Source: Sphyrna mokarran
Taxonomy: Eukaryota
DNA: 64,000 nt
Assembly (NCBI GenBank): GCA_024679065.1
Contig: JAGIQG010000012.1
Span: 47,244,001-47,308,000, forward strand
Reading direction: 5' to 3'
Of this stretch, positions 29,900 to 64,000 are shown in pieces. The stretch's first letter is position 1; each line of letters begins with the position of its first letter. Position numbers and translations under genes: made by a program. A model generated the notes under the pieces. That model worked only from the letters and a program-made list of their open reading frames with translations. It was not told where the DNA came from and did no database searches.

Positions 29900-29940
29900 C
29901 TTTGCCTGAAGAACGCTACAAAAGCCGAGAGCTTGCAAGT
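29900..29940 (+). ncRNA. Minimal type-I hammerhead ribozyme motif (mutated)
   Basis: CUUUGC-CUGAAGA-A-CGCU ACAAA AGCC-GAGA-GC-UU-GCAAGU; GAAA to GAGA and a stem II mismatch, likely inactive. Confidence 0.5.
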
Positions 29941-36059: not shown

Positions 36060-36200
36060 ACATCTCTCTCCCTCACGCATTCACACTTCTCAAACTCTCA
36101 CCTCACACACACCTCTCACATACATTCACTCTCTCTCACACACACCATTCTTGATCTCACAAACACTCACCCCTTTCACATACACACACTCACCTCTGAA
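36060..36200. repeat. CA/CT low-complexity tract
   Basis: Runs of ctctcac / cacacac. Confidence 0.7.
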
Positions 36201-36224
36201 AAACTTACCCTGAGGCCCACACAA

Positions 36225-36875: not shown

Positions 36876-36879
36876 TGGA

Positions 36880-41889: not shown

Positions 41890-44088
41890 CAATGGGGAGA
41901 CTTGCAATTAGAAAAGTTGGGGGGAGGGATTCGAGATGAGGTGACTGGGAGCGAGGAGGTTAGCTTGCAAAAAGAGAAGGATTGTAGACAGTGTAAGAGG
42001 GAGGATAATGATGGAGAAGGGAGCCCTCAGACTGAAGCTTTGAGATGTGTCAGTTTTAACGCCAGGAGTGTGGTGAATAAAGTGGATGAGCTTAGAGCAT
42101 GGATCGCTGCTTGGAAATGTGATGAGGTGGCCATTACAGAGACTTGGATGTCTGAGTGACAGGACTGGATACTTCACATGCTGAGTTTCAGAAAGGACAA
42201 GGAGGGAGGCAAAAGAAGTGGGGAGGGGCGCGGAGTGGCACGGTTGATCAGGGATGGTGTCAGGAATGTAGAGAAGACCCTGGAGGGATTATCTGTGGAG
42301 TCTCTATGAATGGAAGTTCGAAACAGGAAAGGGTCAGTAACTTTGCTAGGTGTTTTCTATAGACCGCCCAATAGTAACAGGAATGTTGAGGAGCAGATAG
42401 GCAAATAGATTCTGGAGAGATGTAGTAATAACAGACTTGCCATGATGGGAGACTTTCATTTCCCAAACATCGATTGGAATATTCTAGGGAAGGGGTTTGG
42501 ATGGGGAGGAATTTGTTAGATGCATTCAGGAGGGTTTCCTGACACAGTATGTGGATAAGCCTACAAGAGAAGAAGCTGTACTTGATCTGGTACTGGCTAA
42601 TGAACCTGGACTGGTGTCAGATCTCTCAGTGGGAGAATACCTTGGGGATAATGATCATAACTCTATCTCCTTTACGCTAGCATTGGAAAGAGGTAGGATC
42701 AGGCAAGTTAGGAAAGTGTTTATTTGGAGTAAGGGGAAATATGAAGGCATCAGGCAGGTAATTAAACAAGTAAATTCGAAGGAGGTATTCGTGGAAAAAA
42801 GTACCTAAGTAAGGTGGCAGATTTTCAAGGAATGTTTGTCTAGAGTTCTGCATGACAACTTTCCGATGAGACAGAGAGGTTTTGATAGGTTACAGGAACT
42901 GTGGCACATGAAAGTTGCAATGATCCTAGTCAAAAAGAAAAGTAAAGCATACAAAAGGTTTGGAGAGCTAGAAGATGTTACAGATTTAGAGGAGTATACA
43001 GCTTGTAGAAAGGTACTTTAAGAAGGAAATTAAGAGAGCCAGAAGGGGTCATGAGAAGGCCTTGGCAGGTAAGACTAAGGAGAACCCTAAGGCCTTCTAC
43101 AAATATGTAAAGAGTAAAAGGATGAGATGTGAAGGAATAGGACCTATAAAGTGTGACGATGGGAAAGTCTGTACAGAACCAGTAGAAATAGCAGAGATAC
43201 TTAATACTTCACCTCAGTATTCACAGTAGAAGAAGATCTGAGTGGTTATACTGTGGGCTTGCAGCAGACTAAAAATATTGAGTATGTGGACATTAAGAAC
43301 GAGGATGTGTTGAGAATTTTGAATAGTATCAAGATAGGTAAGTCACTGGGACCGGATGGAATTTACCCCAGGTTTCTGTGGGAGGTGAGGGAAGAGATTA
43401 CAGAACCTCTGGCAATGATCTTTGCATCGTCGATGGAGAGGTGAGAGGTTCCAGAGGCTTGGAGGATTGTAGATGTGGTTCCTATCTTCAAGAAAGGGAA
43501 TCGGGATAGCCTGGGAAATTACCAGCCAGTGAGTCTAACTTCAGTGGTTTGTAAGTTGATGGAGAAGATCCTGAGGGACAGGAATTATGAACATTTAGAG
43601 AAGTTTAGTGTGCTCAATAGTAGTCAGCATGGCTTTGTCAAAGGCAGATCATGCCTTACGAGCCTAGTTGAGTTCTTTGAAAATGTGACTAAACACATTG
43701 ACAAAGGAAGAGCGGTAGATGTGGTTTATTTGGACTTCAAGGCTTTATAAAGGTATCCCACGCAAGACTTCTTGCAAAAGTGAGAGGGCATTGGAGCCAA
43801 GGGGCTATTGTCTTGTGGATCCAGAACTAGTTTGCCTGCAGAAGACAGAGAGTGTTTGTAGATGGGTCTTTGTGCATTGAGGTCAGTCACCAGTGGAGTG
43901 CCCCAGGGATCTTTTCTGGGACCCTTGCTATTTGTAATTTTCATAAACGATCTGGATGAGGAAGTGGAGGGATGGGTTGGTAAGTTTGCTGAGGACACAA
44001 AGGTTGGTGTGTTGTGGATAGTTTGGAGGGATGTCAGAAGTTGCAAGATGAAATTGATAGGATGCAAGGCTGGCTGGAGAAGTGGCAG
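41890..44088 (+). mobile_element. CR1 LINE ORF2 relic (APE endonuclease and RT), 3'-truncated
   Basis: [118 protein letters not shown]. Confidence 0.95.
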
Positions 44089-45951
44089 GAACTTGTCTGC
44101 CTCAACAGAGTAGTGAACAACACATCAAGAGCAGTGCAGCATTATGAAAGAAAGTTGTTATACCCACTCTGAATTCTTGAGTAAACTGAAAAACACTCAT
44201 TAGCAATCAGTATTACCTTGATATAGGCAGGACACAAAATTAAAAGGCCTGTTGGAATGCTAGTGAATTGCTGTTTTGATGAGCATTCATGAAACGCAAA
44301 TAACATTTGTGCCACTTGTCAGTGGGAAGCGCAACTTGCCATTAACTTGCCATTTGGAAAATTGCAATGTGATTTTCTGTTGGTGGGTTTCGTCTTTTTG
44401 GCTCCGGACGGATTCACTGTGCCTGCTCATCACTAAACTCACCGAAAGTTAGTTGGGAGTATTTTGCTCATAGTCTATGCTGCTAGGCTTCATACTTTAA
44501 AGTCACATTCAGTTCCCTATTTCTCCCTCATCTGAACTTCAAGCACAATATCTGTTATCAGAATTGTTTATATCCATCTGTCAATTTCCAATATCAACTG
44601 ATTCTACCTCTGATTGATACTAAACTCATTCTTGCTCGATAAAGAGCTGACAATTGAGTGCCTAATTAGACAGTATAATAGTGGTCGCAATCAGGCCATA
44701 TTGCCAGCATGCACCTGCCTGTATACATCTGAATGATATTGCAAAGTTGTTTGAAATGCTTTCATGGCATGTGGGCATCACTGTCAAGGCTAACATTTTG
44801 GATGTCAAATCAGCTTGGATCAGTTGGGGAATCATGAAGCCAAGGTGGAAGAAAGGATAGGGGGGTTGTCAAAAGTGTCAATAGTGGGTCAGGAAGGATC
44901 AGTGTAAGCAATTGATACTAACAGTTGCATAATCAGATTAAGTTTTAATCTGTCTAACAGTTCCTGGGTAACTATCCAGTTAAGTAAGCCAAAATCATCC
45001 CAAGTCTCCGTCTCAAACTCAGAATTAGTAACCTTCTTCTGCACTGTAGGGATTCTATGATTTTATTAATTGGTGATCTTATCAGAGGGTCCCAGATTGC
45101 AGGATAATTTCCCATCTGAAGCTCAAACTTCCTGGGCAGTTCACACACATAGTCAGTGTATTGGGACTTCCAATTGTGCATTTTTATGTTTGACAAACTG
45201 GAGACTAGAAGATCTGGGCCAATATGTTCAATATTTAGTCATTCTCAGTGATTTTAAATCAGGTTACTGACAGGTAGAGGGCAGGACATCCTTATTAAAA
45301 ATGCCTATTTTTAGTGTCAATCCCATTTTCAGCTCTATTATTAGAACTGACAAAGATTAGCACTCCTAAATATATTGAAGAATACTTCTTAGTGGAAAGA
45401 GCCAATTACATTCTATAATGCTGCCTGATTGCACTGATGTATTGAAAATTTTATGTTTGTAATTATGCAAATTGATTTTATCAGAAACTTTGCACAGCAG
45501 AATTATAGGGAGTGGGATAGCTTGATCTTGGGATTAGACATAGTCTGCACAACATTGAGGGCTGAAGGGCCTGTACTGTGCTGTAATGTTCTATGTTGTA
45601 GTAGAATTTAGTCAAGCTTTATGAAATCAGGTGGACAGGGACAGTCAATTAGATGGTGAGGCAGAGTGAAATATCAGCATCCCAGTGACAGCAAACTAAA
45701 GGTACATTGTGATTCCCAAAGGCACGCAGCTCCCTGCAACATGAATTATCATGACAGGCATACTCATTAAAACACATGGTAACACATAGTCACCAGATTA
45801 AATCGTATCTTTGCAATTAAGTTGGCAGCAAACAAGGAACATGTGGTCTTTGATTCAAGACCAGTTAAAGGTGACGTGCAGAAGACAAGGGAGTTTACCT
45901 CGTGAATTTGGAGTTAGTAGGAACCGCTTTTCTTGTGTGAGGAACTTTTTT

Positions 45952-46284
45952 CATTGAATCCCTTCAGTGCAGAAAAAGGCCATTTGGCCCATTACTTTTG
46001 CACTGATTCTCCAACAGAGCATCTGACCCAGGCCCTCACCCCTGCCCTCCATAACTCCACACATTTACCCTGCTAATTCCCCCTAACCTACATGTCTTGG
46101 GACATTAAAGGACAATTGATCATGGCCAACCCACCTAAGTTGCACATTTTTGGGCTACAGGAAGAAACCAAAGCACCTGGAGGAAATCCTGCAGATACTG
46201 GGAGAATGTGCTCACTCCTTACAGACAGGGTCCCAAGGCTGAATTGAACCCAGGCACCTGGCACTGTGATGCAGCAGTGTTAAC
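45952..46284 (-). mobile_element. HE1-like V-SINE, near full length
   Basis: tRNA-like head (gaattgaacccaggcacctggcactgtgatgcagcagtgttaac on +), V-domain (ggaagaaaccaaagcacctggaggaaatcc...gggagaatgtgc..actcc..acagaca) and CR1-derived tail. Confidence 0.85.
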
Positions 46285-48052
46285 TTGGGACCAGAGGAGA
46301 GGAAGCTGAGCTGTTGCAGGGAGCTGGGGTGAGACTATCCATGGAGGTCAGGGCATGGCTAGATCTGGAGAGGGTTGAGGATGATGGAGGATAGGTGCAC
46401 AGTGATGGCTTGTAGCTCTAAGGATTCAAGTCTGTAGATGGTAGGGGTGACAGCAGTTGAAACTATATTTTTGTCCCTCAATCGTTGGCTTGCAGGGAAT
46501 AGAAGTTAATTCAAGAGTTGTTTAAATATGGCACCCTGATCTTTCACCATCTTAATGTAATGACAGGGTCAGCAACTTTATGCCCACCCTTGCTGCAGAG
46601 TTGGCTAGGTCGCTTAGCTGTACATAGTTAATATAATGACTTTTATCAGGCCATTGAGGTTGGCCTATTGGAATATGAATTCTCTGATTTAAGGAATCAA
46701 TTGATGGGCTAATCGGGGAGCACCTTGCCTTTTACTTACCCGGGTGTGTAAGTTCCTTTGATACTCTCCGGAGTTAATCTGCAAACTGACAGCACTCTAT
46801 GTACTACTGTTAGAGTTGTAAGTATGTGGGATTTTGGTGAAGGGACTTCCGTCTCTACAGACTTAGTACAGTTAATTGGCTGGCTGCCACATGGAGCCAA
46901 CCATCCTGCTTCCGAGCAGAATTCTCACTCACTTCTGGTCAGAGAAAACTTGCAAATTCTGTGGAATTCTACTCTCAGAATGTAATTTCACCAGCCTGAT
47001 TTTTAAACTGAAAAAGCAGAGGCAGAAACAATATCTTCATATAATTTTCAAGGTGCCAGCTCCTGGACTTTGGAAAAAAAGACAGATTCAGTTGGGTTGG
47101 CAACTTATCCAAAAATATAACCTTTAAAATTTAAATGCTACATGTAAACATGTTCTCAAGGACAAGTGAAGGCACATAAAAATGACATTTTAGCTCACTG
47201 AGTAACCTTATTCCCTGCAGGAATATTTTGTGACAAATAGCAGGTTCACTTTTATACTGCTAATAAACTACTCTGCAATCCATAAAGCACACAGCACATA
47301 GTGAATTACCTGCACACTATGTTATTGCTAAATTAAACATTGATTTCCTTGTCCCTGTTTTCCCCAACATTCACTATTTGTCACTCCTGATTTATGCAGA
47401 CCAAATTATATTTATTTGAAAGTAACAAACGTAATGAAAATAGATTTTTAAACATGGCTTCTAAAGATCAATTAGTATTAACAAGATTTTTCTCTGATTA
47501 CTTGCTTGACCTCATCAAATTGATTTTTTTTTTTTGTTTTTATTTTCAGTTTTACCTATTTATTTGTTCTAAAGAACAACTATTACGAGAGCAAACTGCT
47601 AATCCCAATTTAATGCTGATAAACCCATTTGAATAAATAATCATAGACGGCAGGAAATTTGGACAATAGGCCAGATGTGGAGAGATGTTCATACTTGATA
47701 GCTTAATAGTGATAAATTTATTCTCATTACTTTTAAATTATCTTCAGCATCCACAAAGCTTTACTATTAATTTGAAGTGTTTGCTAGCCTTTGCCAAAGC
47801 TGAAGACAGGAGGTGGAGAAAGTAAAAGTAAACAAAACAAACTGAAAGGAGATAAAGTATGGAAGAATAAACTCTATTATGTGAGCAAGTGATGAGCAAT
47901 ATCACTTTCAACAGACAGGTAGTTGCAAAAGTATAAAGTTGAATTGCACAAAAGATTTGCAAGGAATGTTTCCCTATTTAGCACATCAGGGATGTTTTCA
48001 TTTTTTTTTACAGAGTTTGGCAGCAGGCAGGGAAAGCAGTATGGAAGCTATT

Positions 48053-48055
<3 letters not shown>

Positions 48056-48087
<32 letters not shown>
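48056..48087. repeat. (CA)16 microsatellite
   Basis: Uninterrupted CA run. Confidence 0.95.
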
Positions 48088-48090
<3 letters not shown>

Positions 48091-49787
48091 GCTTCTTTCA
48101 CCATATTGTTAGGGACATAGAAAAGATCTCAAGCCACAGGTCACACAACATTGTGATGGCCAGAACCCGCCCTGCCACTCCAAAGTTTATGTTTTAAAAA
48201 GTTGGGGTGCCCTTTTTAAGAGCTGTCCTATACAAAAAATTAAAAGTAGAACTCCACAGTCCCAAGAATATCCCCTGAACACTTCTCCTTCTTCACCACA
48301 ACTCCCCCCTGATTAAGTCTCAACAGTTCCTCAAAACTGGAACAGCTCCAACACTTCCCCCTCCCACAAATCCCATCTCCGAGTCCCCCACCCTCCCCCC
48401 TCCTCTCCCATTCTCACCCCTGCTTGGCACTGCACCCTGGTGCTGTCCTGTAGTGTCATGGGGCAGTCATGGAGTTATGCACTCACCTGACCTCCTCTCA
48501 GGTTCTCCTTACCAGGTACACAGAGATCTGTCATGAATAGACATAAATGAATAATCTATAGAGGCCTGATAATTATATTTAAATATATTCAATAAGGGAT
48601 CCCAATATTAAATGTTGGAATCATCACTGTCATTGGTGAGGGTGGGAAGACATTTGCTGCAGGAAATCTCAGAAGCTTAAATCACCACTTTGCATTCCCA
48701 CATCCAATTATGCTTCCTCCTAAACAAAAACAGCATATATTCCAACCTGTTGGACCACATTGAGGTCTTGCACAGTTATCTATCCCTTTGATTGTATTTG
48801 ATGAACATCTCAGTAAGGAACATCTTTAAGTTGCAATATATAACTAAAAACCTTAGCATATATACTTTCCAAAACATTGCCAGACATTGTAAAACATTCT
48901 AGCTATAGTCATGTTATGATATCTAGATTGGAGAATGTCTTTCCCTATGCACGAGCTTCCTTAACTTAGAAACTCTGTTTCTAAAATAAATTGTGTATCA
49001 GATATTTAATGAAGTGTTTAATTTTGTCCAGAGAAAGCTGTTCCTAGTGAAGTGTAAAGAGCAAGATGTCTCTTTTATGACATATCTATGTAGATCTGAT
49101 GGGTGGTCTGCACAGAATTTGATTTGGGTGCAACCAAACTTTCATTTAACCATATCTCTATAATTCATCCTTATTATGAGCACCTGACAAATCAGTGTTG
49201 TAATAAATGAAGAAACTGCCTTGAATGATAATTGGAGAAAAATAGAGTAAAAACAAAAATAAAGCCACTAAAATGCATGATTATAATAATCTACCCACCT
49301 GAATACAAAATTGCGAAAGAAATATGCAATCACCTAAGGAAACAACAGAGACAAAGCATTTTATTGTGATTGTTAAAGAGAAGGAAATTGTTTCACAAAT
49401 GAACCAGGCTGATACTGGGAGTGATTGGTGCTGACTTTCAAACTTGGACTAAACTATATTCAGTATTTTCAAAACCATCATTGTTTGTGTTTTTTTTTAA
49501 AGAATAGTGATAACAAATTTAGCAGGGCCAATCTTCACAGACGTTACGGCCAGTTCAAAACTGGTCGAGGCATTTTTAGGTGGCCTTGGAGCCATTAGGT
49601 ATAAACTTCATTTTAAAATTGAAATACATTTCCTGCACAAATTTCTGACCCAAAATGGTGGAATTCCTTACACTGTTCAACACTTGCTATATACACCTGA
49701 AGGAAGGTCACCAGTGGTCATTGAAGGGACAATTGGAAACCACTCAAACATGGCCCAAAGACTGATAGTTTGTATTTGAAGAGTCAT

Positions 49788-49953
49788 GGCCAGAATTTTA
49801 CCACTTTGCCCACTAAAGCTTGTAAAATCTCGCGCAAGATCAATGGAAAATGCCACTCTGTAAGCCTCGCCCACCCTGATTTTGGACCGGGCAATGCTTG
49901 CAGAAAGGCATTCTCCATTGGCCTTGAGTGGGTGAGGCAATAAAATTCTGACA
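49788..49953. mobile_element. Harbinger-type MITE
   Basis: TIRs ggccagaatttta / taaaattctgac; internal inverted caatgga.aatgcc / ggcattctccattg. Confidence 0.7.
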
Positions 49954-51189
49954 ATGTTAACTTAGACTTTTGCTCCAATTAATTAATAGACTCACCAACT
50001 ATTTTTCAATCAAATCATGCCTTTATTTGGGAAATGTAACAAAACTTATAACTGCTGCAAGACTGACTCTTTTGCACTGTATCACAAACCAATGCTTCTA
50101 TTCCCATTATAAACCTGCTATAATTTTCCAAATGTAGATTTTAACTACCTATAATTACCTAATTGACCTGTAGGGGTTTGTCTATCCATTTATGCTGGGC
50201 AGGCATGGAGAGGGATCCAACTTTATCAAGCTTTACTTGAGGTTTCTTTTTTTTCCTTTTGTTCTTCTCTGATTCTGTTCTTCAAAACTGCAATATTTAT
50301 TATTTTGAGATTGACTGAAATACCTGCATTTCTGCATGTAGGTATTGACCACAGGCATATCATCAAATTAGGCTGCCAGACCTTAGGGTAGTTGTTCTAA
50401 GTTATCTTAGCACTCAAAATCAGATTTCTGCCCCTATTTTTATCTGTTTCCTGACTATGCAATAAATTAGAATGACTTTATTACTTATAATAAAACCAAA
50501 GACATTTGTGACAAGCGAACAGAGCAGTCCACATACTGAGCCTGGAGTTAAAACCTTTGGCCCTGAAGTTAGCCACATTTCCTATCAAGTTATTGTTGTG
50601 TCTTTTTTTTTTGGCCATTTTGAATTAGATTATAGCCCAATGTGTATAGTCACAAAAAACTGGAATACTGCTCCTGGCTCCAACTACGGACCATTGCAAG
50701 TCTGCTTTCATGCTTCTCCTGGCTTGGTAAAGGGTGACATTGATAAAGGCGTGTAAGTGAAGCTGTATTCAGGTGGTTGATAGCTGGATTTCATACAATC
50801 TTAATGAGGATGAACTCATTTTGATCTTGAAGCCTCTCTGTTCTGACTGCCAAAACTGGGTCCCATCAAAATCTTGCATCATTTAAGGATCTAAAAACTG
50901 ATACTCTAGGACTCTGCACTATAGCTCTGAAGAACCCCTCTATCTAATCCAATTTCTCTGTTTGTTCCCCATAACCCTTTACTCAATTTTCAAATATTGC
51001 TCCAATTTCTTTGTTTTCCAAATATTTAACAGTTTTGTTTGACAACCATCTGCATGGGAAAATCCTCCAACTGTTATTTTGGTCTTGAATTTATATTTAT
51101 GCCCTATAGTTTATTGACTTACCAACGAGTGAAAATAGTTATTTTCCTGCTTACTTAATCAAAATCTGAATAAGTAAAGAGTAGCAGTG

Positions 51190-51510
51190 AATGCTTGTTT
51201 TTCATCTTGGAGGTATGTAGACAGTTTGGTTCCCTGGGAATTGGTATTTGGAAAAAGACTCTTTTTTTGATATATACTATGACATGGTGGGCAGAGTACA
51301 ATTTCCAAATTTGCAAAATGACACAATGTGGAGCAATTGTAAACTGAATTCAAGAGGACATAAACAGGCTGGTGGAATGGGAGGACGTGTAAGATTAATT
51401 TCAATGCTATGAAATATGCATTTTGGTGGGAAGAATGAGAAGAAGCAATATAAATCAAAAGGTTCAATTCTTAAGGTGTGTGGGAGCAGAAAGACTTGGA
51501 TGGATACACT
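51190..51510 (+). mobile_element. Degenerate CR1 RT fragment
   Basis: TISKFAK*HN.., QEDINRLVEW, FNAMKY..HFGGKNE motifs. Confidence 0.6.
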
Positions 51511-52729
51511 TTCAATAAAACAATAAGTAATTAACAAAAGAGGGTGGCATTCTCTGTTGGGACATTGCAACTCAAATAAAAGTTCAAAAAGCAACTTAAT
51601 TCATTGAATTAAAATGATACTTGGGGTGGGGGGGAGGTGATGATGATCCAAGAGCCTGGTTGCAGAAGATGAGAAATGTGCGATGGACACAGTGTGTTCC
51701 CTCTTCCAGGCCACCCAGCCATAAATGTAGCCCTAGTATAGGGCAATCAGACTAGACAATCTCGATCATTTGCTACCTAGAAGAAACCAAAAACAGCCCA
51801 CTGGCCCTCACACCCCTTTTTCCTCAACACATTTACTTCCCATGTCCTATCCAAGCCAATTCAAATTGTCTAATGTCCCCTCATATCTCTGTTGACAAAT
51901 TATTTCCCACCACACACCACCTTGGCCCTTATAACACTAACATTGTGCCAACTCATATCAAGCTATGCCCCCACCACCCTTTTCCCTTGCACTGTCCATG
52001 CCAGCTCAAAAAGTATCCACCCTGAGCAGACATCAGGAGCCATTCTGAGCTGAAATGAAACAGAGACACAAAGTTCTAAATATCTATTGCAGATTTTATT
52101 CTAAGAAAACACATAGAAATGCATTCAGTACATTTAAATTCCTTCAAGTATATAATCTCTTATGAAAATACATATGTATTCATTGTTCTGCGTCAAAGAC
52201 TTGGAGCATCATTCAAACAATGAATTGAGAATTCTTCCCCCATTGTGATAATGGGTTATGGAATCACTCGAGCAGCACCGATCCTACAGTGATAGCTTTC
52301 AGGTTTATGTCAACAGACAGCTAGTGAAATTGCAAATAGTTTTTTTTCCAACTGCAAAGTGTTTAATTTTCAAAAAGTTAGAGTTTGAGGATTTAAGTGC
52401 CGTGACAGTTTTCTAGTTCTACTGAGTGCATTTTTACTCATATCTAATTTTAAAAATATGAAAGGACACTTGACTTCTCCAAAAGTGATACCTGGACCTC
52501 TCCAACAGGACCCTCTGAATATGTTTGAAGGCGACTGTACTTTAATATGTGCACCCACCTCCATGAACCAGAGATGTGCAAAATACAAGCTACCCTTGTT
52601 CCCCCAGTGAAAATGTTGGGTGCTAAGTTTAGAGGTGCATCTTCTGGAATTGGAGGCTCTGGCATCATTTTAGCTAAGATGTAGAGCTCTTCTAACCCTG
52701 CTAATATTTGGACCATACAGTATAAAATC

Positions 52730-53370
52730 AAACAAGTTATGATGTATCTTATTAAAACTCTGGTTCAGTCTCAGCTGGAGATTGTGCCCAATTCTGGGCA
52801 GCATATTTTAGGAAGCACATGAAAGCTTTAGAGAGAGTACAGAAAATTTTTTTTGATAATAGTTCCATGAATGAAAGTGTTCAATTGCATTCAGTACAAG
52901 AAAGCTAGGGTTGTTCTCCTTAGTGGTGGATGGAAGAGAGTTCTAAGGTTTTGGTCCAATAGCACTAAAGGAACAGCAATGTAGTTGGTGTTTGACTTGG
53001 AGAGAAACTTTACAGGTGGTGATTCTCCTATGCATCTACAGACTTTGTCCTACTTGATAGTAGAAATCATGGTGAGGGTCTTTGGCCATGTAGAAGGAAA
53101 TTATTCCAATTGGCAGCAAGTTTGACATCCCTTAAGGTGTTGGGCAAAGGAATCAAAAACAACATGTGGAAAGGTTTGTTTTATGCAACGAGTTGTTTGT
53201 AATCTAGAATACACTACCTGAGTATATAGTATTGACAGATGCTGAAGAGAAGAGATTGTGGGCTTTAGGGTAAGGACAGAAGGAGTGGAACTAGCTGAGT
53301 TGTTCTTGCAAAAAGCTGTCACAGAAATAACAGGACAATGGCCTCCTTCTGCGCTGTAATCATTCTATAA
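52730..53370 (+). mobile_element. CR1 3' fragments with an intervening LINE fragment
   Basis: KTLVQSQLE..QFWA..FRKHMKALERVQ (52750-52850); CR1 3' UTR ending ggcctccttctgcgctgtaatcattcta at ~53370. Confidence 0.65.
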
Positions 53371-53578
53371 TTCAAATCCTTTGATAATATACCAGTTATT
53401 CCTTGCAAATGTCAAAAATTTGCTTGATGTGTCAAAATATTGGTTTTTCAGATTTGGTGAATCAACAAGTGTTTTCAAATATTCTGTTAAAATATCTGCT
53501 ATTATCAAGTATTTAAAAGTCGGAATATTTCATAGGTGAAAATGCTGAATTCCTGGAGGGTGCAAAATTAAAACAGAA

Positions 53579-54587
53579 GGCCCAATTTTACCATCGCATT
53601 GCCAGGTGCAAAAATTTGTTAATATTGGTAGTGAGGCAAGTAGTGTGATCAACACCCGCCTGCGCACTGGTTCCCTTTTTCACCAATGCATACATTTAAA
53701 TTGACTTAATCGGCTGTACGATTAAGCCGATTATCATACAGCTTATCTGCTGTACATATAAAGTTACCAACTTTATCACATTTCCCCCTTTAACACTGTG
53801 TTCACCCATTTGAAATCGAAACAGACATGCTCCATATAAGTCCGATTCAGGCATCCTGTCAGTGAGGGTTAATGACAAGGTAAAGGCTGAGGTCTTTGGT
53901 TGAGATTGGTGGGGGGCAAGGTAGGAGCTGTGGGTCTGACGACTCTCTGCTTGATATCGATGGGGAAGGGTGAAAGGGGCATCTGGTACCTCTCTGCCTA
54001 TGATCAGTGAGGGTGAAAGGGGATCTACTGCCACTGCCTATGATCAGTGGGGGAGGGAGGGGTTTGCTGCCACTCTGCCTGTGATCAGTAAGGGGGAAGT
54101 GTTTGTTGCTACTCTGCCTGAGATCAGTAAGGGGCGGAAGGGGGATCTGCTACCACTCAGTCGGAGATCAGTAGATGGGAAGGTGGAGTCCATTGACGCT
54201 CTGCCTGAGATCAGTGGGAGGAAAGGGGAGGGCTCATGTTCATCTGTATGGCAGGTGTGTGTGGGGGGGGGGGATAAGGAAGTCAGTGGGTGGAGCAATA
54301 TCTGTGGGGGCCAGGGGGAGACATTATCCAGCCCAGGAAGGAAATGCAGAGGAGCAACATTCTATAATTTTTTTCTGTGCATGTGTAGTTGGAGATGTCA
54401 ATCGGAACTACAGAGTTTTGGGCATGTTAAGCCCCGCCCATACGCTTCTGTAGTGCAATTCAGTGTCACTAATATTTCTTCAGGCAGAGTGCATATGGGG
54501 GTGCCCCAGAACAGGTCTAAAAGTCAGATCTGAAACACTTCCAGTTTCAAGTCTGCCCAGCACTTAGTAAATGGTAAAATAGGATCC
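53579..54587. mobile_element. Non-autonomous Harbinger-like element with an internal G-rich tandem array
   Basis: TIRs ggcccaattttaccat / atggtaaaataggatcc; both arms homologous (inverted) to the 55350-58441 element. Confidence 0.7.
53940..54232. repeat. ~36-42-bp tandem repeat (ctctgcctgwgatcagtgggg...gggatctgctgcca), about 7 units
   Basis: Repeated ctgcct[ag][ta]gatcagt motif at regular spacing. Confidence 0.8.
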
Positions 54588-55489
54588 AGTATCAGGAGAG
54601 TCATTCCTAATGGAAAATTTTAAAGTGATCAAATAAACTATGTTTAATTTTTCAGCCAAAAATGTGCTTCATATTGATGGGGTTTGAGAATATCCCAGGA
54701 GCCTATTCATTATCTTTTTTTCCGAAATTTATTCATCAAACCTGTCAATCTATACTTCCTGTCTAAGCTGGAAGGATGAGTCCCACAGTGGTGTAGAAGA
54801 CAGGAGCCAGAACTGCAGTCAGTGTTGATCTGTGATAAGCCAACATGGAATGCATTTCTTTCAGAAATCACTTGGTGTGACTTGTTTGTTTTCTTCTTTG
54901 TGAAACCCTGCTGTTTATGTTGCAATCCACTCTCAAACAGACCACATCACTCTTTAACTAAGACAGTGTCAAATAACAATCAAGACTAAGGTTTGAAAAA
55001 TTCCAGCCATGAGCCCAATGCTTCATGAATAAGACAACATATATACATCAAATTTGAACTTTGGCACATATATTTCATGGAAAATTATTAAGTTCTTGCC
55101 ATATCCATTACTCCTATACATGTCACCTTGATAGGTATTTTCAATGATGAATTGTTACAAAGGAATATAGGACTTGAGAGTAGGATTATTGATTTTCAAT
55201 AAGATCATGTTTCATCTTTCCAAGTTCCAATGGGTCTAGGCTCAACCTGTTCAATCTTTCGTCATAAAATAAGCCCATCATCTCAGGAATGAGCCATGTG
55301 AACCTTCTTCAAACCACTTCTAATGCAGTTCTAGAATTTTACAAATAAAAGATCTGATTTTAGCATTTTAATTCCAAGCGCTGAATCTGGACGCAATTCA
55401 GATCCAACTTGGAAATCTGAATTCAGACGTCCCCATACGCACTTAGCCTGAAAAAAAAAAGGTCCCAATCATGCTGTGGGCAGGGCTTA

Positions 55490-56497
55490 CATACAGCACA
55501 GGAACAGGTCCTTCGGCCCTCCAAGCTTGCACCGATCATGTGTTCGTAACTAGACCATCCATTTGTATCACTCTATTCCTAGTCTGTTCATGTGGCTATC
55601 TAGATAAGTCTTAAATGATCCTAATCTGTCTGCCTCAACTACTTTGCTTGGTAGTGCATTCCAGATTCCAGATTCCAGGCCGCCGCCACCACCCTCTGTG
55701 TTAAACAAAAAATCCCCCGCATATCTGTATTGAACCTTGCACCACCACCCGCACCTTGAACTTGTGATCCCTTGTGTTTGTCATTTCTAACCTGGGAAAA
55801 GGCTTCCAACTGTTCACCTTATCTATGCCCTTCATAATTTTATAAACTTCTATTAGGTCGTCCCTCAACCTCCATCTTTCCAAAGAGAACAATCCTGGTT
55901 TACTCAGTGTCACCTCATAGCTAATATCCTCCGTAACATGCAACATCCTGGTGAACCTTTTCTGCATCCTCTCCAAAGCCTCCACACCCTTTTAGTAGTG
56001 TGGCGACCAGAACTGGACACAGTATTCCAAATGTGGCCTAACCAACATTCAATATAACGGCAAAATCATATGCCAACTTTTACACTCTATGCCCAGTCCA
56101 ATAAAGACAAGCATGCCATATGTTTTCTTTACCACCTTTTCCATTTGGGCTGCCACCTTTAAGGACTTGTCGACTTGCACACCCAGATCCTGTGTGTGTC
56201 TATGTTCCTGATGGTTCTGCAATTAATTGTATATCTCCATTGTGCATTAGATCTATCAAATGTATCACTTCACATTTATCTGGATTAAATTCCATCTGCC
56301 ATTTCTCTGCCCAATTTTCCAGCCTATCTATATCCTGCTGTAATCTCTGACAATGTTCATCACTGTCTGCAATTCCAGCAATCTTTTTGTCATCTGCAAA
56401 CATACTAATCAGACCAACTACATCTTCTTCCAAATCATTTATATATCCACATCAGAGGTCCCAGTACAGAGCGCTGAGGAACTTCACTAGTGATAGA
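55490..56497 (-). mobile_element. CR1 LINE, RT C-terminus and 3' end
   Basis: ISMFADDKKIAG..LQQDIDRLENWAEKWQMEFNPDKCEV; ALERMQKRFTRML..GLFSLERWRLRDDLIEVYKIMKG. Confidence 0.92.
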
Positions 56498-56619
56498 TTA
56501 GTGTGCCTGAAATGGAGCTCTGAACTGCAAATGCACAGTTAGAAAAAAAATTTAAAAACGCACTGTTGTCACATTGCTCCCAGCTCGCAAAAAGCAGATA
56601 AAACAGCCCTGAAGCAATG

Positions 56620-57370
56620 ACATCACCCCCACCCCATAACACAATTTTCCCTCTTATCCACCCATGCACCCCCGCTACCCAGACTGATCACGACTTCCTG
56701 CCCCTTTCTCCCTCGATTACCTGCACAGTGGCAGCAGACCTGCCCACCCCCCCATGAGAGATCATCTGGCCATCCCTCCCTCCCTCGCCCCCCCCCCACC
56801 CGCCGCCAGCCAAGAGATCCATCAGCTTCCTAACCCCCCAGAGAGCCATCTGGCCACCTTCTGCAGAACCATTTGGTCCCCCTCACCACCAGCACCTCTA
56901 CCACATACCCCCCCCACTACCCCCACCCGAGGTCCATCTGCTCCACCCCCCTCTCCACCATGACCAGTCATCCATTTGGCCCTCTGCCCCACTTCCACAC
57001 CGAGATCCATCTGCCCCCTCCTCCCCTTTAACCGGACCATAATCTGGCCTCCCTCCTTCCTCACCCCTATTCACCAGAGATGCATTTGTCTGGCCTCCCT
57101 TCTCCTGCCTAGCACCCCCCCCCACCAGAGAATGATTAAGTCAGCCTCCACTCCACCCCACCCCCCCGCTTCACCAGACGACAATCTGCCCTCCTTCTGC
57201 CCACCTATCACCTGTCCCCCCAACTAGAGAGCAATCTTTCCTCCCTCTGCCCTCCTGCCAGAAATACATCTAACCCACTCCCTCCTCGTCCCTCCACCAG
57301 CGAATGATTTGGCCTCCCTTCTCCCTGCCCCCCACCAGAGAATGATCTGGCCCAGCTCCCTCCATCACTG
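56620..57370. repeat. C-rich (G-rich on minus) degenerate tandem array
   Basis: Recurrent ccccaccagaga..atctggcc.cc units separated by C runs. Confidence 0.7.
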
Positions 57371-57441
57371 ATTTGAGTCACAGAACTCAGTAAGAATTTA
57401 GCAACACCAATTTTCAATCCAACCGATTTATTTGATAGTAA

Positions 57442-57480
57442 ATCCGCGAGCTTTCGACACTGTGTCTTCGTCAGGCAAAT
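57442..57480 (-). ncRNA. Minimal type-I hammerhead ribozyme motif, intact core
   Basis: AUUUGC-CUGACGA-A-GACA CAG UGUC-GAAA-GC-UC|GCGGAU: 6-bp stem I (two GU pairs), complete core, palindromic AGCU stem III, CUC cleavage triplet. Confidence 0.75.
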
Positions 57481-57695
57481 GCAGTGTTCTGGTCTGCAGT
57501 AGCACACATCAGCACGGACAGTTACAGATTGCTGATTAGAATGCGAATCCTTACATCTAACCTGCTATTCAAGTGTTAAAGTGGCTAACAATGTGTGTGA
57601 AGGGAATCCTGAGCATTGGTTAGAGAATTGCATATTTTCTCCAGACAGCACAGTAAGTGAGGTTTTTTTTTGCTAACCCAGGCAAGTTAAAGGGG

Positions 57696-57965
57696 TTACA
57701 GATAGTGTGTCATGAAGCCAAGATCCCTATTAAGGCCGTCCTCATGTGTGCGGAACTTGGCTATCAGTCTCTGCTCAGTGACTCTGCGCTGTCGTGTGTC
57801 ACGAAGGCTCCCTTGAAGAACATTTACCCGCAGGTCAGAGGCCGAATGCCCATGACTGCTGAAATGTTCGCCCACAGGAAGGGAACTGTTTTGCCTGGTG
57901 ATTGTTGAGCGATGTTCATTCATCTGCTGTTGTAGTGTCTGCATGGTGTCCCCAGTGTACCATGC
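57696..57965 (-). pseudogene. Penelope GIY-YIG endonuclease C-terminal fragment
   Basis: AWYTGDTMQTLQQQMNEHR...LPVGEHF..HGHS..DLRV.VL...RRVTEQRLIAKFRTHEDGLNRD, matching the YIGET..R..EH / HF..H / E..I..F.T...GLN motifs. Confidence 0.88.
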
Positions 57966-57998
57966 CTGACGAAGACACAGTGTCGAAAGCTTGCAGAT
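57963..57998 (+). ncRNA. Minimal hammerhead ribozyme motif, stem I 5' side truncated
   Basis: UGC-CUGACGA-A-GACA CAG UGUC-GAAA-GC-UU|GCAGAU; core intact, only 3 bp of stem I retained. Confidence 0.6.
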
Positions 57999-58454
57999 TT
58001 ACTATCAAATAAATGGGTTGGATTGAAAATTGGTGTTGCTAAATTCTTACTGAGTTCTTACTACCCCAGTCCAACTCCGGCATCTTTACATCTTGAGTCA
58101 CAGAGCCATTGGAAGCTCTGAACCTATCTCTTAAAAAGCTGGAGCATCTGAAACAAACCTTTTGTCGAGCATGTCTGTTTCAGGCCGAACCTGGATATGT
58201 GAACATGATGCTAAAGGGGGCAATGCTGATAAAATTGGACAGGCAGTTCGTTAGTTCAATTTAAATACATACAACTGCATTTAAATTGCTACTGTGTCCA
58301 TTTTGGGTGCGAATCGGATCGCAGCCCTTCCCAGGCCTTATTAAAGTGGCATCTGCGTGGATGTGGGCGCAGTTTGCATTAATGGCCTCACACCCAACTT
58401 TTCCACATTTTTGGGCATGATGCAGTAATAAAATCAGGCCCAAAGAGACTAAAA

Positions 58455-59790
58455 CTCTACACAGTACTCTAGATATGATTTCACCAAGGTCCTGTATAGC
58501 TGCAGAAAAATATACCTACTGTTATATTCCATTCCCATTGCAATAAGCACCAATATTTCACTACTTTCCTAATTGCTTGTTGTACTTATACAATACGCTT
58601 TTGTGATTCATGTACCAGAACATTGAGATCTCTCTTTCCCTTGAGTTTTGCAGTCTCTCTATTTATTTAGTGTTTTGCTTCTCTCTTTTTCCTAGCAAAA
58701 GTGGACGAGTTCACATTTTCCCACATTATACTCCATGTGATAATTTATTGTCCATGCATCTGTATCCCATTGTAGATTTCTTACCTCCTCTTGACAATTT
58801 ACTTTCCTACTTACCATGGTGCCATTTTCAAATTTAGTTACCATACATCTGGTCCCTTCATTGAAGTCATTGATATAGAATGTATGTAAAATGTTGAGAC
58901 CACAGCACTGATCCCAATGGCACTCCACTAGTTACAATTTGCCAACCTAAAAATGATTTATACTTCTTCTTTGCTTTTTATAAGCAATCCAATCCCTTTT
59001 GCATGCTAATGTGTTAACTCTCCACTGTGGGCTATTAATTTGTGGAGTAACCTTTGATGTGTTACTTCATACAGTTCCAATAAATAAGTTAAACACAATT
59101 TCTTTTTACAAAACCCAGTTGACTTTGTCTGATTGTATTATGATTCTTTGAATAAATCTGTTTTTAACTTCTTAACTGATTTGAGCAATTTCCATTTGAC
59201 AGATGTCAGACTAGATGGCCTATAATTTCCTTCTTTTTGTCTTTCTCTTTTCTTGAATAAAGGTGTTAGATTTGCTATTTTCCAATCTGTTGGGACCCTT
59301 CTGGAATGTCAGGAATTTTGAAAGATTATAACCAATGTGTCTACTATATCTGCATCCACTTCTTTTAAGATCTGAGAATGCAGACCAGGCCTTGGTAATT
59401 GGTTAGCCTTTATTCTGATGGTTCTGAGAAAACCTTTTTCTTTGGTGATGGTGATTGTTTAAACCTCCTCCCTCACTTTGATCTCTTGATTTTCAAGCTT
59501 TTTTGGGAAGTTTTCTAAGTCAGTAAAGGCATACAAAATACCTGTTCAACATTTCTTCTATTTCCTTGTTCCCCGTTATTTGTTCCCAAGGCTCATGCTC
59601 TAGAGAAGCAATGTACATTTTAGTTACGCTTTTCCTTTTTAAATATTTGTACAAATTTTACTATCTGTTTTGTGTTATAGCTAGCTTTCTTCCAAAATCT
59701 AGTTTATCTCTCATTGTTACTTACTTCAGTTACCATTTTTTTGCTTCTTACAATCTCTCCAATTTTGTGACTGTGATAACCTCCTTGAGT
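58455..59790 (-). mobile_element. Old degenerate CR1 ORF2 fragment
   Basis: YINDFNEGTRCMVTKFENGTMVSRKVNCQEE..LQ; GNYRPSSLTSV on minus near 59200. Confidence 0.75.
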
Positions 59791-61184
59791 CTATGGAATT
59801 AATTGAATATGGGTTCCTTTGATTACAGTTGAAGATTCTTAAAGTTAAAATTTATTTATTACTGTCACAAGACCTGCAACAACAAGGGCTTGCCCAGGTG
59901 GAACTCATGACCTGAATCTGTTGGAAGACAGACACCCTGCCAGAGGTCAACTTTTCTGTTCACATCCTATTGAGGGATATCCTGATTTTTTTTTTCCCTA
60001 GACACTTGGGAGAAATGGGTGTGTATGAGATGCCATTTACCAGTTTAGGAATGCCAGCATAGCAGCCTGAACTAAGACTGTTCAGAGGTTAAAATGTTTA
60101 GAAGTCCTCTTTGCAGAAAGGCAATCAGTGCTACTTGGAAAGCTTGCTTATTAAAACCCAATTTCTTACAGCTCCTCCAATTTGAGAAGGAAATATCCTT
60201 ATGACTTTTCATAACTATTTTTTGAATATTATAGTTATTTCTAAAATACATGTTTTTTCCCCTAATTTATTGATTACACATTGTTTGTAAGATCCCAAAG
60301 CTACAAGAATTATCTGATTACTTGGTCTGGCACTCCCTACTGCAGATCTTAAGGTTGCTCCTTTAAGTGGAAAATATCCTGAAGGCAGGATATTCCTGGC
60401 CCTTAGCATATAAGAACATGTAATTAAAGCAATAAAATATGCATGGACTGGAAAGATTCTCCAGCTCTGTCTTCATCTAGATCCATCTTGTGAATAATTC
60501 TTATTACATGTTATTTCTCCCTAGCCTTCCTTTGTCTCAATCCAAATTTCCTTTTGCTTTAATTCTACTGTCAGTTGGCAATGGTAAAAGGGAGTAGAAT
60601 TAAAGTCAGTTTCTCTGTGGAGTATGTGTCAGTGCCTTGACTATTAAAAAAAATGTTTTCCTGCTCTTTGGGCCATATTAATCATTTTCATATCATCCTA
60701 TTTAACAAGTATCTGAGCAAGTCCGACTCTTTGCAGCTGCATCATGTATTTTTTCATATTAGTTTGTTTACAAATTATAAATCACTTCTGCACCCTCATA
60801 CCAGTGTTCTAATTTTTATTTTAATTGTCATATTTGTAAGTGATGTTCATGCATTTCCTTATCTGTTATATGTGATCTCTAATCCTTTTTAAGTAAGATT
60901 TTCAATTTGCATAGTATTCTTTCATGATGGGTAATCTTTCTTCCCTCTCCCACAAATCCTTGTTTTGTATTTGTGGAAGGTTTATCAGATCTATAGGGAT
61001 CAAGCTGTATTGTTTACCAGTCAGCTTCATGATCTGACATCTCATTGTCTTTAAAAAAAACTTTTCAATAATTCTTCCTAATTTTATAGGATCTCCCCAA
61101 AGGATGAAAGAGGGTCTTCATCTCAAGGATTTTTGCTCATTTCCTACAGTTTTTTGTCCCATGTTTCAGGTGGCAGCCAGATTT

Positions 61185-61495
61185 GTTTTTATTCATTCAT
61201 GCGACATGGGCATCACTAACTGGCCAGCATTTATTGCCCATCCCTGGGTCATTTCAGAGGGCAGTTGGGAATCAACCACATTGCTGTTGCTCTGGAGTTG
61301 CATGAGATTTCCTGATTCGTGAACAAGAGTGTGTTGATTGTTGGAGAAACAATCACTTCACGGTCAGCAGTGAATTCTTAATTCCAAATTTAAAAAAAAT
61401 TCAGTTCTGTGTGGTGAAATTTAAACCTGAGTCCCCAGAACATTAGCTGAGTTTCTGGAATAATAGCCTAGCGATAAAACCACTGGGCCATCACT
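61185..61495 (-). mobile_element. tRNA-derived SINE
   Basis: ggccagcatttattgcccatccc...gagggcagtt...aatcaaccacattgc...ccccagaacattagctgagtttctgga..aatag...agcgataa.accact. Confidence 0.75.
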
Positions 61496-63039
61496 TCCGT
61501 CATTATAAAATTCAGTTCTCTTAAAATGTTCATAGGCAAAGACATAAATGTATCCAAGAGAAAGCTGTCATCTCATTCATTTCATCTATGTTTCCTTTCA
61601 CTAGAATTTATATCAACACCCAAAGTTATTTTAATTCCCATTTGGTGTTATGCCCTTTTCTCCTAATTCCAATTGTAAGTGGGGCATCCCATTGTTTCTT
61701 CCAATAGCATGTTTTCATAATATCTTTGAAACAGAAATTAAATTTTTTGACTTGATTCTAGGGATTAATTTTTAAATTTTGCTTAGTTCCTTCTCTTAAA
61801 CAATATTTTATTTTTTCAAAAGAGACCCACTAAATCAAGTTTATCCAAGGGTGAGTCCATGAAACAGAACTGAAATATGAGTCTGGGATTCACCATGGAG
61901 CTGCCAAGTACATGGGTGTGCATTGATATTTTGTGGCAGGCAAAAAATAGGGCAAATATCTCACTGAATCAGTGCTCAGTGGCAGGGTGGGGTGGGAGGT
62001 GCACATAAGATTTTTAGTTCTGCAGCTTGTCATAAGGATACAGATTTGTGTTGTTTTGAGTTATACTGAAATACATTTCCACTCCTTAGAGCATATCCTC
62101 TTTTCACCCCAAAAATTGAAATATGCCCTATCTGCCCCAACCCTAAATAAAGAAAAGTTTGGATAAGTCGGCAATATTTTGTGTCTGACTATTTTTTATC
62201 AAATAACCAAAATTCAAACAGCAGTATTGCTGGATATTTTCCAAGTGCTCAGTTTATTTCTTTCAGAAACAATTTTTTTTTCTGGCACTGAGAAACCACC
62301 TAGACTGCTTTTTCATCAGTTTTTTGGGGAAAAATTAGTATTTGTTTATGCCTTGATTATCAAGTAAATAGTTGAAATAACAACTCATGTTCAGTTATTT
62401 TTACCAACTTGATTTGCTATCAAACCCCCGGGTTGTCTTTATATTTTGGGACCAAACTGCATTATTTTACAATTATATTCTAGCATGGTTTGGTTTTCTT
62501 TAACAGAAACTCACAGCTGTTAACATTAAATTTCTTCCAAAATTAATTCTATGAATCTTAATCTTTGCAACAAGCACCCTGCTTTAACAATCACTTGACT
62601 CCGCTATATGTTATATATTCAACTGGGCAGAAGTACTCTATAGTGTTAGAGGATCATAAATGCTGACAAGCCAGGCATCAAATGTCTCTGTAAATACACT
62701 CGGGCTTTTGATAGGGAACTGTTGAATACCAAATTGACCTTTGGGAATATCCATCTCTTGCTTTAACTCGAGGAAGCCTACAGATGGAAGGATATCTGTA
62801 AAATCATAGCTTCCTAACTTTGGAACCTCCTCGGCCTCCATTTAACTCTGAAAAGATTCTCAAATGCTTCTCTGAAGCCACTACAGCTTCCTGGCTTCCT
62901 GCATTTGATCTAATTTTTCATCTTGTATAATGTACTTTGTCACATGTTTCCTGTTCGCAATAGAACTGATCAAATGGGTCAGTCCCTTTTGGAAGTTACT
63001 GACCTGTTCTTCCCCCAACACCTCTTTATAGAAAATCCT

Positions 63040-63430
63040 AAAAAGTGCATAAAATATCAGCTTTCTAATTTCTTACAATACTGCTCGAAGAATTTGTCCT
63101 GAATATACACTATGAACTCATTTTCTGGGCTTTCTTTTGCAATTTCATTCCCCTAATCTGTGTGGGTTAAAATCACCATTGATTGTCACAATGTCTTTTG
63201 TCCATGGCCCATTTATTACTTCCTGTATACTCTTTCCCACAGTGCACAACTGTTAGTGGGTCTGTAAACTACAGCAAATGACTCTCACTTTTACCCAAAC
63301 TAAATGTATATTTTGATTTTTTTCAAATAAAAATACTCACTACTATTCTATTGTTATCTTAATAGACATGATTCTTCTCCCTTTCTATCTTTCTGAAATA
63401 TCAAGTATCACTGATAATTCAGGCCCCAGC
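63040..63430 (-). mobile_element. Degenerate CR1 APE endonuclease fragment
   Basis: Minus strand contains VVYRPTN, GDFN and FIVYIQDKFFEQY, resembling CR1 endonuclease motifs. Confidence 0.55.
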
Positions 63431-63589
63431 CACTCTCTGGTTATCATTATCCTGACTGCACCCTGTTCTATCACCTTGTTATTATCCTTTACCACATCTT
63501 CCCTCAAGATTTTATGACCTTGGTCATTATTGGTATTATTACCTTCTCTTAGGTATATGACTCACTGTGCTACTCATGGTTTCATTAAA

Positions 63590-63692
63590 ATCAAATTCTA
63601 TGGAAGGATCATTCAGATTTGATGCATCAATTCTGTTTCTCTCCATGGATGCTGCCACACCTGCTGAATTTATCCAGTCTTTTCTGTTCTCT
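63590..63692 (+). mobile_element. Short Penelope-derived repeat of a second family (degenerate)
   Basis: tctgtttctctccatggatgctgccacacctgctgaatttatccagtcttttctgtt; the reverse complement of its 3' part occurs at ~34605-34657. Confidence 0.5.
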
Positions 63693-64000
63693 TTCATGTT
63701 TCGAGTTGTGTACTCACTCATTTTGCGTTTGATTTTGAAGGACAATCAGCTGTGCTTTCAACTATTTATTTTCTTGTTGACCTCTTGCAATTTCACGTTG
63801 TGATTTTAGTGCGTAGCTTTGTTGCTACAGATAATACTACTGGAGTATTTTCTGAAGTAGTATTCAACATCCTTTTTAATCTTCTCATAATTTTCTGGGG
63901 TTACTTTTTGATTTCTTGAAAAGTCATTTAGAGCAGCAACTTATTTAAGTACCTTTACTATTTGCTATTGTGCTTGTCTATACTTGTTGATTCTACCAAC

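What the first reader, a model, noticed from the sequence alone, without database searches (positions are those of the whole stretch)
57442..57480. Minimal hammerhead ribozyme with structure-preserving variation across copies, predicted to need dimerisation
Seen: five motif copies (29753-, 29900+, 34345+, 57442-, 57963+). Stem II is GACA/UGUC in one subfamily and GGCU/AGCC in the other. Stem I keeps pairing through Watson-Crick or GU pairs (AUUUGC with GCGGAU; CUUUGC with GCAAGU). An extra A follows CUGANGA, and stem III is just the palindrome AGCU. Established: Penelope-like elements carry minimal type-I hammerheads with palindromic stem III that cleave as dimers of tandem copies. Inference: here the copies are inverted or solo, so a transcript holds only one sense motif and would cleave only with a partner RNA in trans, which could make dispersed copies conditional cleavage sites in host pre-mRNA. 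This copy is the best candidate for activity.
Basis: partly seen in the sequence, partly recalled or inferred. Interest (0 to 1): 0.7.

Follow-up and report, generated by a model that had tools for sequence, protein, structure and literature searches.

The report
Shark Penelope hammerhead with fossil cuts
This is the known tiny self-cutting RNA motif at the end of a Penelope-type jumping gene, lying backwards in a neurexin intron where it is likely inert, but six sister insertions elsewhere in the genome restart exactly at its predicted cut site, which suggests the motif does cut the element's own RNA in living cells.

Summary
The motif at 57442-57480(-) is real: a minimal type-I hammerhead in the end repeat (pLTR) of a 5'-truncated, head-to-head Neptune-type Penelope-like insertion (57382-58092, 9-12 bp target duplication). 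The genome holds 21,863 core matches (0 control). This is the class Cervera and De la Pena 2014 described, solo and inverted copies included. The host-cleavage idea fails here. The window is an intron of alpha-neurexin-1 on +, so this copy is antisense. Its inverted arm is predicted to bury it in dsRNA. The three sense copies are defective, and cores decay at CpG without strand bias. Full-length tandem elements carry two sense motifs, so no trans partner is needed. Stem II covaries; stem I is conserved for only 2 bp. The added value lies outside the window: 6 of 6 insertions with an A-run after the element's AATAAA restart exactly at the predicted scissile bond, and all 4 partner arms end within 2 nt of it. 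That is likely a DNA record of in vivo cleavage plus a reverse-transcriptase jump onto poly(A); a transcription start at that base is the rival. This scan noted such elements (36 notes) and related cut-site junctions on other DNA before.

The parts
57442..57480 (-). Minimal type-I hammerhead (stem I 6 bp with two G-U, core, extra A, stem II, AGCU palindrome); predicted cut between 57448 and 57447; antisense to the host gene
57382..57965 (-). Long arm of the insertion: end of the ORF plus pLTR, ending 66 nt after the predicted cut (tail-less end)
57696..57965 (-). C-terminal remnant of the element ORF (second half of the GIY-YIG endonuclease), 89 aa plus stop
57427..57432 (-). AATAAA at +16 to +21 after the predicted cut; likely the element's polyadenylation signal
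   Evidence: sequence; A-runs start 13-15 nt behind it in six sister insertions
57963..58092 (+). Short inverted arm, 5'-truncated inside stem I, motif core 57966-57991, U17; 3-nt overlap with the long arm
58059..58092 (+). 34-nt tail, present on this arm only; in full-length copies it ends at the ORF start codon
57373..57384 (.). Target-site duplication, left copy (9 bp, 12 with 3 nt shared with the element end)
58093..58104 (.). Target-site duplication, right copy
29659..29998 (.). Head-to-head insertion of another subfamily with a 10-bp target duplication; motifs 29753-29793(-) (A9>G) and 29900-29940(+) (A14>G, stem II broken)
34334..34443 (+). Solo pLTR arm, motif 34345-34384, intact core, stem I only 2 bp (a subfamily state); sense to the host gene
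25004..25187 (.). Older head-to-head stub with an 8-bp target duplication and no hammerhead core
1..64000 (+). Part of one intron (about 142 kb) of an alpha-neurexin-1 gene
   Evidence: flanking exons match neurexin-1-alpha residues 225-332 and 383-530 of 3qcw_A, with a 54-codon exon between them upstream of the window

Best explanation
The motif is the minimal hammerhead in the pLTR of a Neptune-type Penelope-like retrotransposon; this copy is a truncated, antisense and likely inert passenger in a neurexin intron, whereas in the element's own tandem RNA the motif likely cuts now and then at the predicted bond. Steps: (shown) tandem pLTR-ORF-pLTR elements carry two sense motifs 3.03 kb apart; (inferred) the two pair through AGCU and swap stem I, probably helped by the element protein; (inferred from DNA junctions) the cut makes an RNA 5' end 100 nt before the start codon, while the 3' end comes from polyadenylation behind AATAAA; (inferred from arm ends and the Anolis work) reverse transcription starts at two internal sites, 66 and 100 nt after the cut site, from both target strands, giving head-to-head arms with one tail; (inferred) on a cut template the enzyme runs off at +1 and sometimes jumps onto a poly(A) end. 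Most insertions, this one included, were copied from RNA that was uncut or rejoined without a scar.
For: Element: 893-aa ORF with RVT_1, DKG, YIDD, CxxxxCxxC linker and GIY-YIG in L071; 5 of 30 ORF loci are tandems with two sense motifs; tail on exactly one arm in 32 of 33 inverted pairs and a duplication of 7 nt or more in 23 of 33. Selection in the element lineage: N7 takes all four bases and position 17 takes C/U/A in 124 of 124 copies while the extra A is fixed; G17 in only 75 matches against 21,863; core intact in 29 of 30 loci picked by protein alone; stem II covaries. Cutting: 6 of 6 A-run junctions restart at +1 though about 31 restart positions were allowed; partner arms end at +1 exactly in 2, at +1 to -2 in 1 and at +1/+2 in 1 of the 4 that have one; L346 joins an unrelated AATAAA + A6 end to +1. 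Inert here: antisense to the host, buried in dsRNA, cores decay in the gene.
Against: No RNA or cleavage data. Only six junctions among 57,792 arms, and the first (L233) prompted the search, so five are the test. 5' ends at the cut site are at most about twofold enriched and under 1% of arms (hand-curated). A transcription start at the same base would leave the same footprint. The active dimer is not the predicted optimum (+1.7 kcal/mol over two monomers; an alternative duplex is -24.6 vs -11.7). 18 of 30 young ORF-bearing copies have only 2 bp of stem I. In Anolis no RNA-seq reads ended at the site and cleavage was dispensable for insertion in vitro (PMC11167929).
Confidence: 0.8

Rival explanations
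1. Same element and same inert copy, but +1 is the element's transcription start site rather than a ribozyme cut; the junctions record jumps from ordinary mRNA 5' ends and the motif may not cut in vivo.
For: D. virilis Penelope has an internal TATA-less promoter in its 5' repeat (PMC2377424, passages). The -1/+1 bases are pyrimidine/purine, like an initiator (recalled rule). No reads at the cut site in Anolis.
Against: It needs a start site that falls by chance on the scissile bond in several subfamilies. No extra G, as a cap can leave (recalled), at any of the 6 restarts or 4 partner ends. G17 is avoided.
Confidence: 0.12
2. One reading: dispersed copies are conditional cleavage sites in host pre-mRNA, cut when a partner RNA pairs in trans.
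For: About 22,000 intact cores; 2 of 23 sense motifs in 1.06 Mb of the neurexin locus keep core, stem II and 4 bp of stem I; the dimer needs only AGCU plus stem I pairing, which two molecules could supply.
Against: The named copy is antisense and sequestered; the window's three sense copies are defective; no strand bias of intact cores (p 0.50) and non-CpG core positions are no better kept than flanks (25 of 451 vs 12 of 574, flank partly chosen as anchor; 6 of 377 vs 60 of 8,779 in 29 sisters); published rates are low even in cis (PMC4209133).
Confidence: 0.04
3. The motif is only a protein-binding or structural signal, or a dead relic, and the six junctions are DNA-level duplications or microhomology joins.
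For: Stem I shrinks to 2 bp in successful subfamilies. Many head-to-head joins near the motif are microhomology-driven.
Against: The A-runs hold 4-8 non-templated A, start at a poly(A)-like distance from AATAAA, and in L326 join two different subfamilies; restarts at the A-rich core, which microhomology would favour, are 0 of 6.
Confidence: 0.04

Closest known systems
Minimal hammerheads (min-HHR) of metazoan Penelope-like elements, Cervera and De la Pena 2014 (PMC4209133; parts 1-2 of 4 read, figures and supplements not seen)
   Same: No helix III beyond the palindromic 15.2-16.2, extra base between 9 and 10.1, G10.1-C11.1, location in pLTRs of Xena, Poseidon and Neptune in fishes, thousands of solo copies, pairs on opposite strands 100-700 bp apart, predicted dimers.
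   Different: More copies (about 22,000 against 4,000-9,000 there); stem II of 3-5 bp; stem I down to 2 bp in young subfamilies (2 bp is reported there for D. virilis); that paper had no in vivo evidence.
Poseidon element of Anolis carolinensis, Frangieh et al. 2024 (PMC11167929; parts 1-2 of 4 read, supplements not seen)
   Same: Two internal RT start sites that bound the tail, both target strands extended, hammerhead in the pLTR, uncut RNA the main template.
   Different: There the motif overlaps the ORF start and the tail lies in the ORF; here the cut is 100 nt before the start codon and the tail ends at it. No ends at the cut site were found there; six genomic junctions are found here.
Insertion units of EN+ PLEs (Craig et al. 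2021, PMC8557442; Arkhipova et al. 2013, PMC3846280; passages only)
   Same: Partial tandems, adjacent inverted 5'-truncated copy, one-sided 30-40 bp tail, 8-10 bp target duplications, Zn-finger-like linker of Neptune.
   Different: Nothing essential for the window copy; poly(A)-to-cut-site junctions did not appear in the passages seen.
Dimeric PLE hammerhead variants, Lunse et al. 2017 (PMC5785218; not held, title and a review's passages only, PMC6765202)
   Same: Short palindromic stem III, cleavage as dimers.
   Different: Could not be compared in detail.

Membership tests
min-HHR of metazoan PLEs | Core CUGANGA ... GAAA ... UH | tested here: met
   57442(-) intact; 29 of 30 protein-selected loci intact
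min-HHR of metazoan PLEs | Unpaired base between A9 and stem II; G10.1-C11.1 | tested here: met
   A in 124 of 124; first stem II pair G-C 77, G-U 46 of 124
min-HHR of metazoan PLEs | No stem-loop III, palindromic AGCU | tested here: met
   sequence
min-HHR of metazoan PLEs | Covariation in the helices | tested here: met
   stem II: 3 of 4 pairs with two-sided changes, 91.8% paired; whole structure 0 of 500 shuffles reach the score, a control that ignores relatedness. Stem I weak beyond 2 bp
min-HHR of metazoan PLEs | Lies in the pLTR of a PLE, repeated in tandem copies | tested here: met
min-HHR of metazoan PLEs | Cleaves as a dimer, not as a monomer | not testable with these tools
   energy model only; indirect DNA junctions
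EN+ PLE, Neptune clade | Single ORF with RT and C-terminal GIY-YIG | tested here: met
   L071: RVT_1 E 1e-9, GIY-YIG E 4e-4 (just under the Pfam cut-off), DKG and YIDD
EN+ PLE, Neptune clade | CX2-5CxxC linker between RT and EN | tested here: met
   CHSNLCKTC at residue 755; Nematis shares such a linker
EN+ PLE, Neptune clade | RT phylogeny groups with Neptune rather than Nematis | not tested
   no reference RTs at hand; the clade name rests on the linker and the vertebrate host
EN+ PLE, Neptune clade | Inverted 5'-truncated copy, one-sided tail, target duplication | tested here: met
Canonical type-I hammerheads in Rfam (including intronic HH9/HH10; names recalled) | Match to the curated models, closed stem III | tested here: not met
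   no hammerhead family among 9 matches at E up to 10
Metazoan retrozymes | ORF-less 170-400 nt units in direct tandem (PMC11722881 passage) | tested here: not met
   the arm carries an ORF end and copies are inverted or solo

The most novel reading that the evidence does not exclude
Minimal Penelope hammerheads, even with a 2-bp stem I, cut the element RNA in the shark germ line to make its 5' end, and the element's reverse transcriptase jumps from that end onto poly(A) tails, its own or a host RNA's. This would rebuild a tandem pLTR from a single processed transcript and capture host 3' ends.
Probability: 0.6. Interest if true: 0.65.

Novelty: new member of a known kind. Interest (0 to 1): 0.42.

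Why it matters
The copy itself is ordinary transposon debris. Whether the weak minimal hammerheads of animal Penelope elements ever cut in vivo, and why, is stated as open in the papers read (PMC4209133, PMC8557442, PMC11167929). The poly(A)-to-cut-site junctions name the bond, the likely product ends and a candidate route to the tandem repeats these elements need, and a single pattern search can repeat the test in any shark, fish or reptile genome. My paper searches listed no report of such junctions; Lunse 2017, subscription papers and supplements were not seen.

Tried and rejected
Rfam scan of the window: no hammerhead; the MIR841 hit only reflects the 29.7-30.0 kb fold-back. Sequencing runs: none was listed for 58100-64000, so no reads were laid. 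Pfam on the 89-aa remnant: nothing useful. Spike of 5' truncations at the cut site: 867 pattern hits, but 19 of the first 30 were register shifts with the core intact (by hand); of the first 100 listed, 56 were inspected (30 unselected, 26 picked as not looking like shifts) and about 26 were true ends, 12 clean at +1, 10 ambiguous, 4 at +2 to +6 (labels corrected by hand); neighbouring bins gave 86 and 276 hits. Result: at most about twofold, not decisive. Copies simply ending in poly(A): 1 hit, and it is an expanded A-run inside an element. L319, the seventh hit, is a chance CAAATAAA in the flank and was dropped. L338 and L343 start at +1 but share 2-3 nt with the target, so they are not counted. 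U6-type fusions: no Rfam match in 14 junction loci. The count of 139 copies held duplicates; (124) replaces it, and both samples are weighted to the subfamilies I searched with. Five outlier rows of 63 were left out of alignment A1. Lunse 2017 and Ferbeyre 1998 were not held.

Full report
1. Observation. The minus strand at 57480-57442 reads stem I 5' (AUUUGC), core CUGACGA, an extra A, stem II, GAAAGCU, C17 and stem I 3' (GCGGAU) (hammerhead numbering and residue roles are recalled). A covariance model built from 58 family rows finds five matches in the window, the five named. Only this one is intact. 29753(-) has A9>G, 29900(+) has A14>G and a broken stem II, 34345(+) has 2 bp of stem I, and 57963(+) is cut off inside stem I. 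The G at 57445 that gives GCGGAU is private: 0 of 29 sisters share it. Rfam gave no hammerhead.

2. What it belongs to. About 220 nt upstream on the same strand ends an 89-aa frame whose homologues are shark proteins at up to 84% identity, one with an RT domain. Searching the 2.77-Gb genome with that protein gave long open frames in the 69 places scored. L071 encodes 893 aa with RVT_1, DKG, YIDD, a CxxxxCxxC linker and GIY-YIG: an endonuclease-bearing Penelope-like element of Neptune type (no tree was built). Of 30 such loci, 5 are pLTR-ORF-pLTR tandems with two sense motifs about 3.03 kb apart. The window copy is a head-to-head insertion, 57382-58092: a long arm without tail, a short arm with a 34-nt tail, a 3-nt overlap and a 9-12 bp target duplication. 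Among 33 inverted pairs, 32 have the tail on one arm only and 23 have a duplication of 7 nt or more (a few pairs may be counted twice). This layout is published (PMC8557442, PMC3846280, passages) and fits the two RT start sites shown for Anolis Poseidon (PMC11167929). Copy numbers: 11,940 strict and 21,863 broader core matches, 57,792 pLTR ends, controls 0, 0 and 1.

3. Is the motif under selection, and where? In the element lineage, yes. In 124 de-duplicated copies N7 is C/G/U/A 67/27/24/6, position 17 is C/U/A 101/12/11, and the extra A is fixed (part of the sample came from a pattern that excluded G17). Genome-wide G17 occurs 75 times, scattered over subfamilies. Stem II pairs switch among A-U, G-C and G-U, and among A-U, U-A and C-G. 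Stem I is another matter: pairs 1-2 hold in 120 of 124, pairs 3, 4 and 5 in 78, 88 and 59, and 18 of 30 protein-selected young copies have only 2 bp. After insertion, no. In 1.064 Mb around the window 59 arms were found, 41 with a motif part; 12 have an intact core, G12 is changed in 12 and G8 in 7, mostly CpG transitions.

4. The host-cleavage idea. Exons of alpha-neurexin-1 flank the window on the + strand (E 1e-97 and 1e-114 to 3qcw_A), and the window lies in one intron of about 142 kb; further exons run to +865 kb. The highlighted copy is therefore antisense to the pre-mRNA. On either strand the motif is predicted to pair with the 96-nt inverted arm (mean probability 0.91 and 0.96). The pre-mRNA holds several sense motifs, so the premise of one motif per transcript is wrong, and the three in the window are defective. 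Intact cores are not depleted or enriched on the sense strand (8 of 23 vs 4 of 18, p 0.50; small numbers, and the ends of the region are only presumed to be in the gene). No RNA data could be laid.

5. Does it cut at all? Most insertions run through the motif, and 5' ends at the predicted bond are at most about twofold enriched and under 1% of arms. So most templates were uncut or rejoined without a scar, as in Anolis. One locus from that test, L233, showed a pLTR running past AATAAA into an A-run and restarting at +1. A genome-wide pattern that left the restart free over about 31 positions returned six hits, all at +1. A second pattern with a shifted free range returned the same six and one chance hit. 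The six lie on six contigs and in five subfamilies. Their A-runs start at +34 to +36 and hold 4-8 A beyond the element sequence, two of them with a stray T. Four have an inverted partner arm and a target duplication; those arms end at +1 exactly (L329, L330), at +1 to -2 (L326) or at +1/+2 (L328). Setting L233 aside, five of five at one of 31 positions is about 3e-8 under a uniform model, which is crude. L346 adds a junction in which about 60 nt of unrelated sequence with its own AATAAA and A6 precede +1 inside a 15-bp duplication with one mismatch. L325 and L329 belong to the 2-bp stem I subfamily.

6. Mechanism. Shown: element anatomy, tandem sense pairs, lineage-level conservation, junction positions. 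Inferred: a cis dimer in tandem RNA, probably protein-assisted as in Anolis; a cut that makes the 5' end; polyadenylation as the 3' end, since the upstream units keep an uncut motif before the A-run (5 of 6; the sixth is too short); a jump by the reverse transcriptase rather than ligation, because joining 3'-OH to 5'-OH is not RtcB chemistry (recalled) and stray bases sit at two joins. The energy model does not favour the active dimer on its own, which fits the low rates reported (PMC4209133). The main rival is a transcription start at +1 (PMC2377424 shows an internal promoter in D. virilis).

7. Novelty. The motif, its dimer logic and its solo and inverted copies were described in 2014, so the finding as written is a new member of a known kind, and its host-cleavage twist has no support here. 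The junction set is what deserves follow-up. Earlier notes of this scan cover the same elements (36 notes; 27 in this genome), gave me the lead on polyadenylation, and, as seen after my test, report U6 fusions and one single-case junction at such cut sites; they are unchecked AI notes and are not counted as support. Supplements of the papers were not read and may bear on the claims about read ends and on novelty.

Noticed in passing
L325-L330 (G000 C1:35.58 Mb, C446:58.93 Mb, C668:21.77 Mb, C871:8.33 Mb, C1215:60.04 Mb, C1437:91.22 Mb): Six insertions with pLTR, AATAAA, A-run and restart exactly at the predicted cut site; L326 joins two different subfamilies.
   Followed up: yes
L346 (G000:C113:69.99 Mb): About 60 nt of non-element sequence ending in AATAAA ... 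A6 is joined to +1 inside a target duplication; it may be a captured host mRNA 3' end. Source gene not sought.
   Followed up: partly
window 25004-25187: The plus arm starts at 25085, which is +1 of its subfamily, after about 27 nt of filler made of repeated pieces of the other arm; a small deletion in the core would look similar.
   Followed up: no
window 34390-34400, 58008-58013 and other sense arms: Sense arms put AATAAA followed by a GU-rich stretch into the neurexin intron; premature polyadenylation is a more plausible host effect than ribozyme cleavage. Untested.
   Followed up: no
L061-L090: The youngest ORF-bearing subfamilies keep core and stem II but only 2-3 bp of stem I (25 of 30); L072 and L082 have different motif variants in their two pLTRs.
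   Followed up: partly
window 36234-36766, 53974-54219 and 56700-57370: Degenerate tandem arrays (about 20-nt and 40-nt units, C-rich or G-rich); the finding's insertion sits at the edge of one.
   Followed up: no
window 2441-3104, 40233-44124, 55704-55991: Broken reading frames that look like LINE reverse transcriptase or endonuclease pieces (by eye).
   Followed up: no
proteins P0008, P0013, P0014, P0021-P0024: Several annotated shark gene isoforms carry this element's endonuclease end as an exon; real exonisation or annotation error not checked.
   Followed up: no
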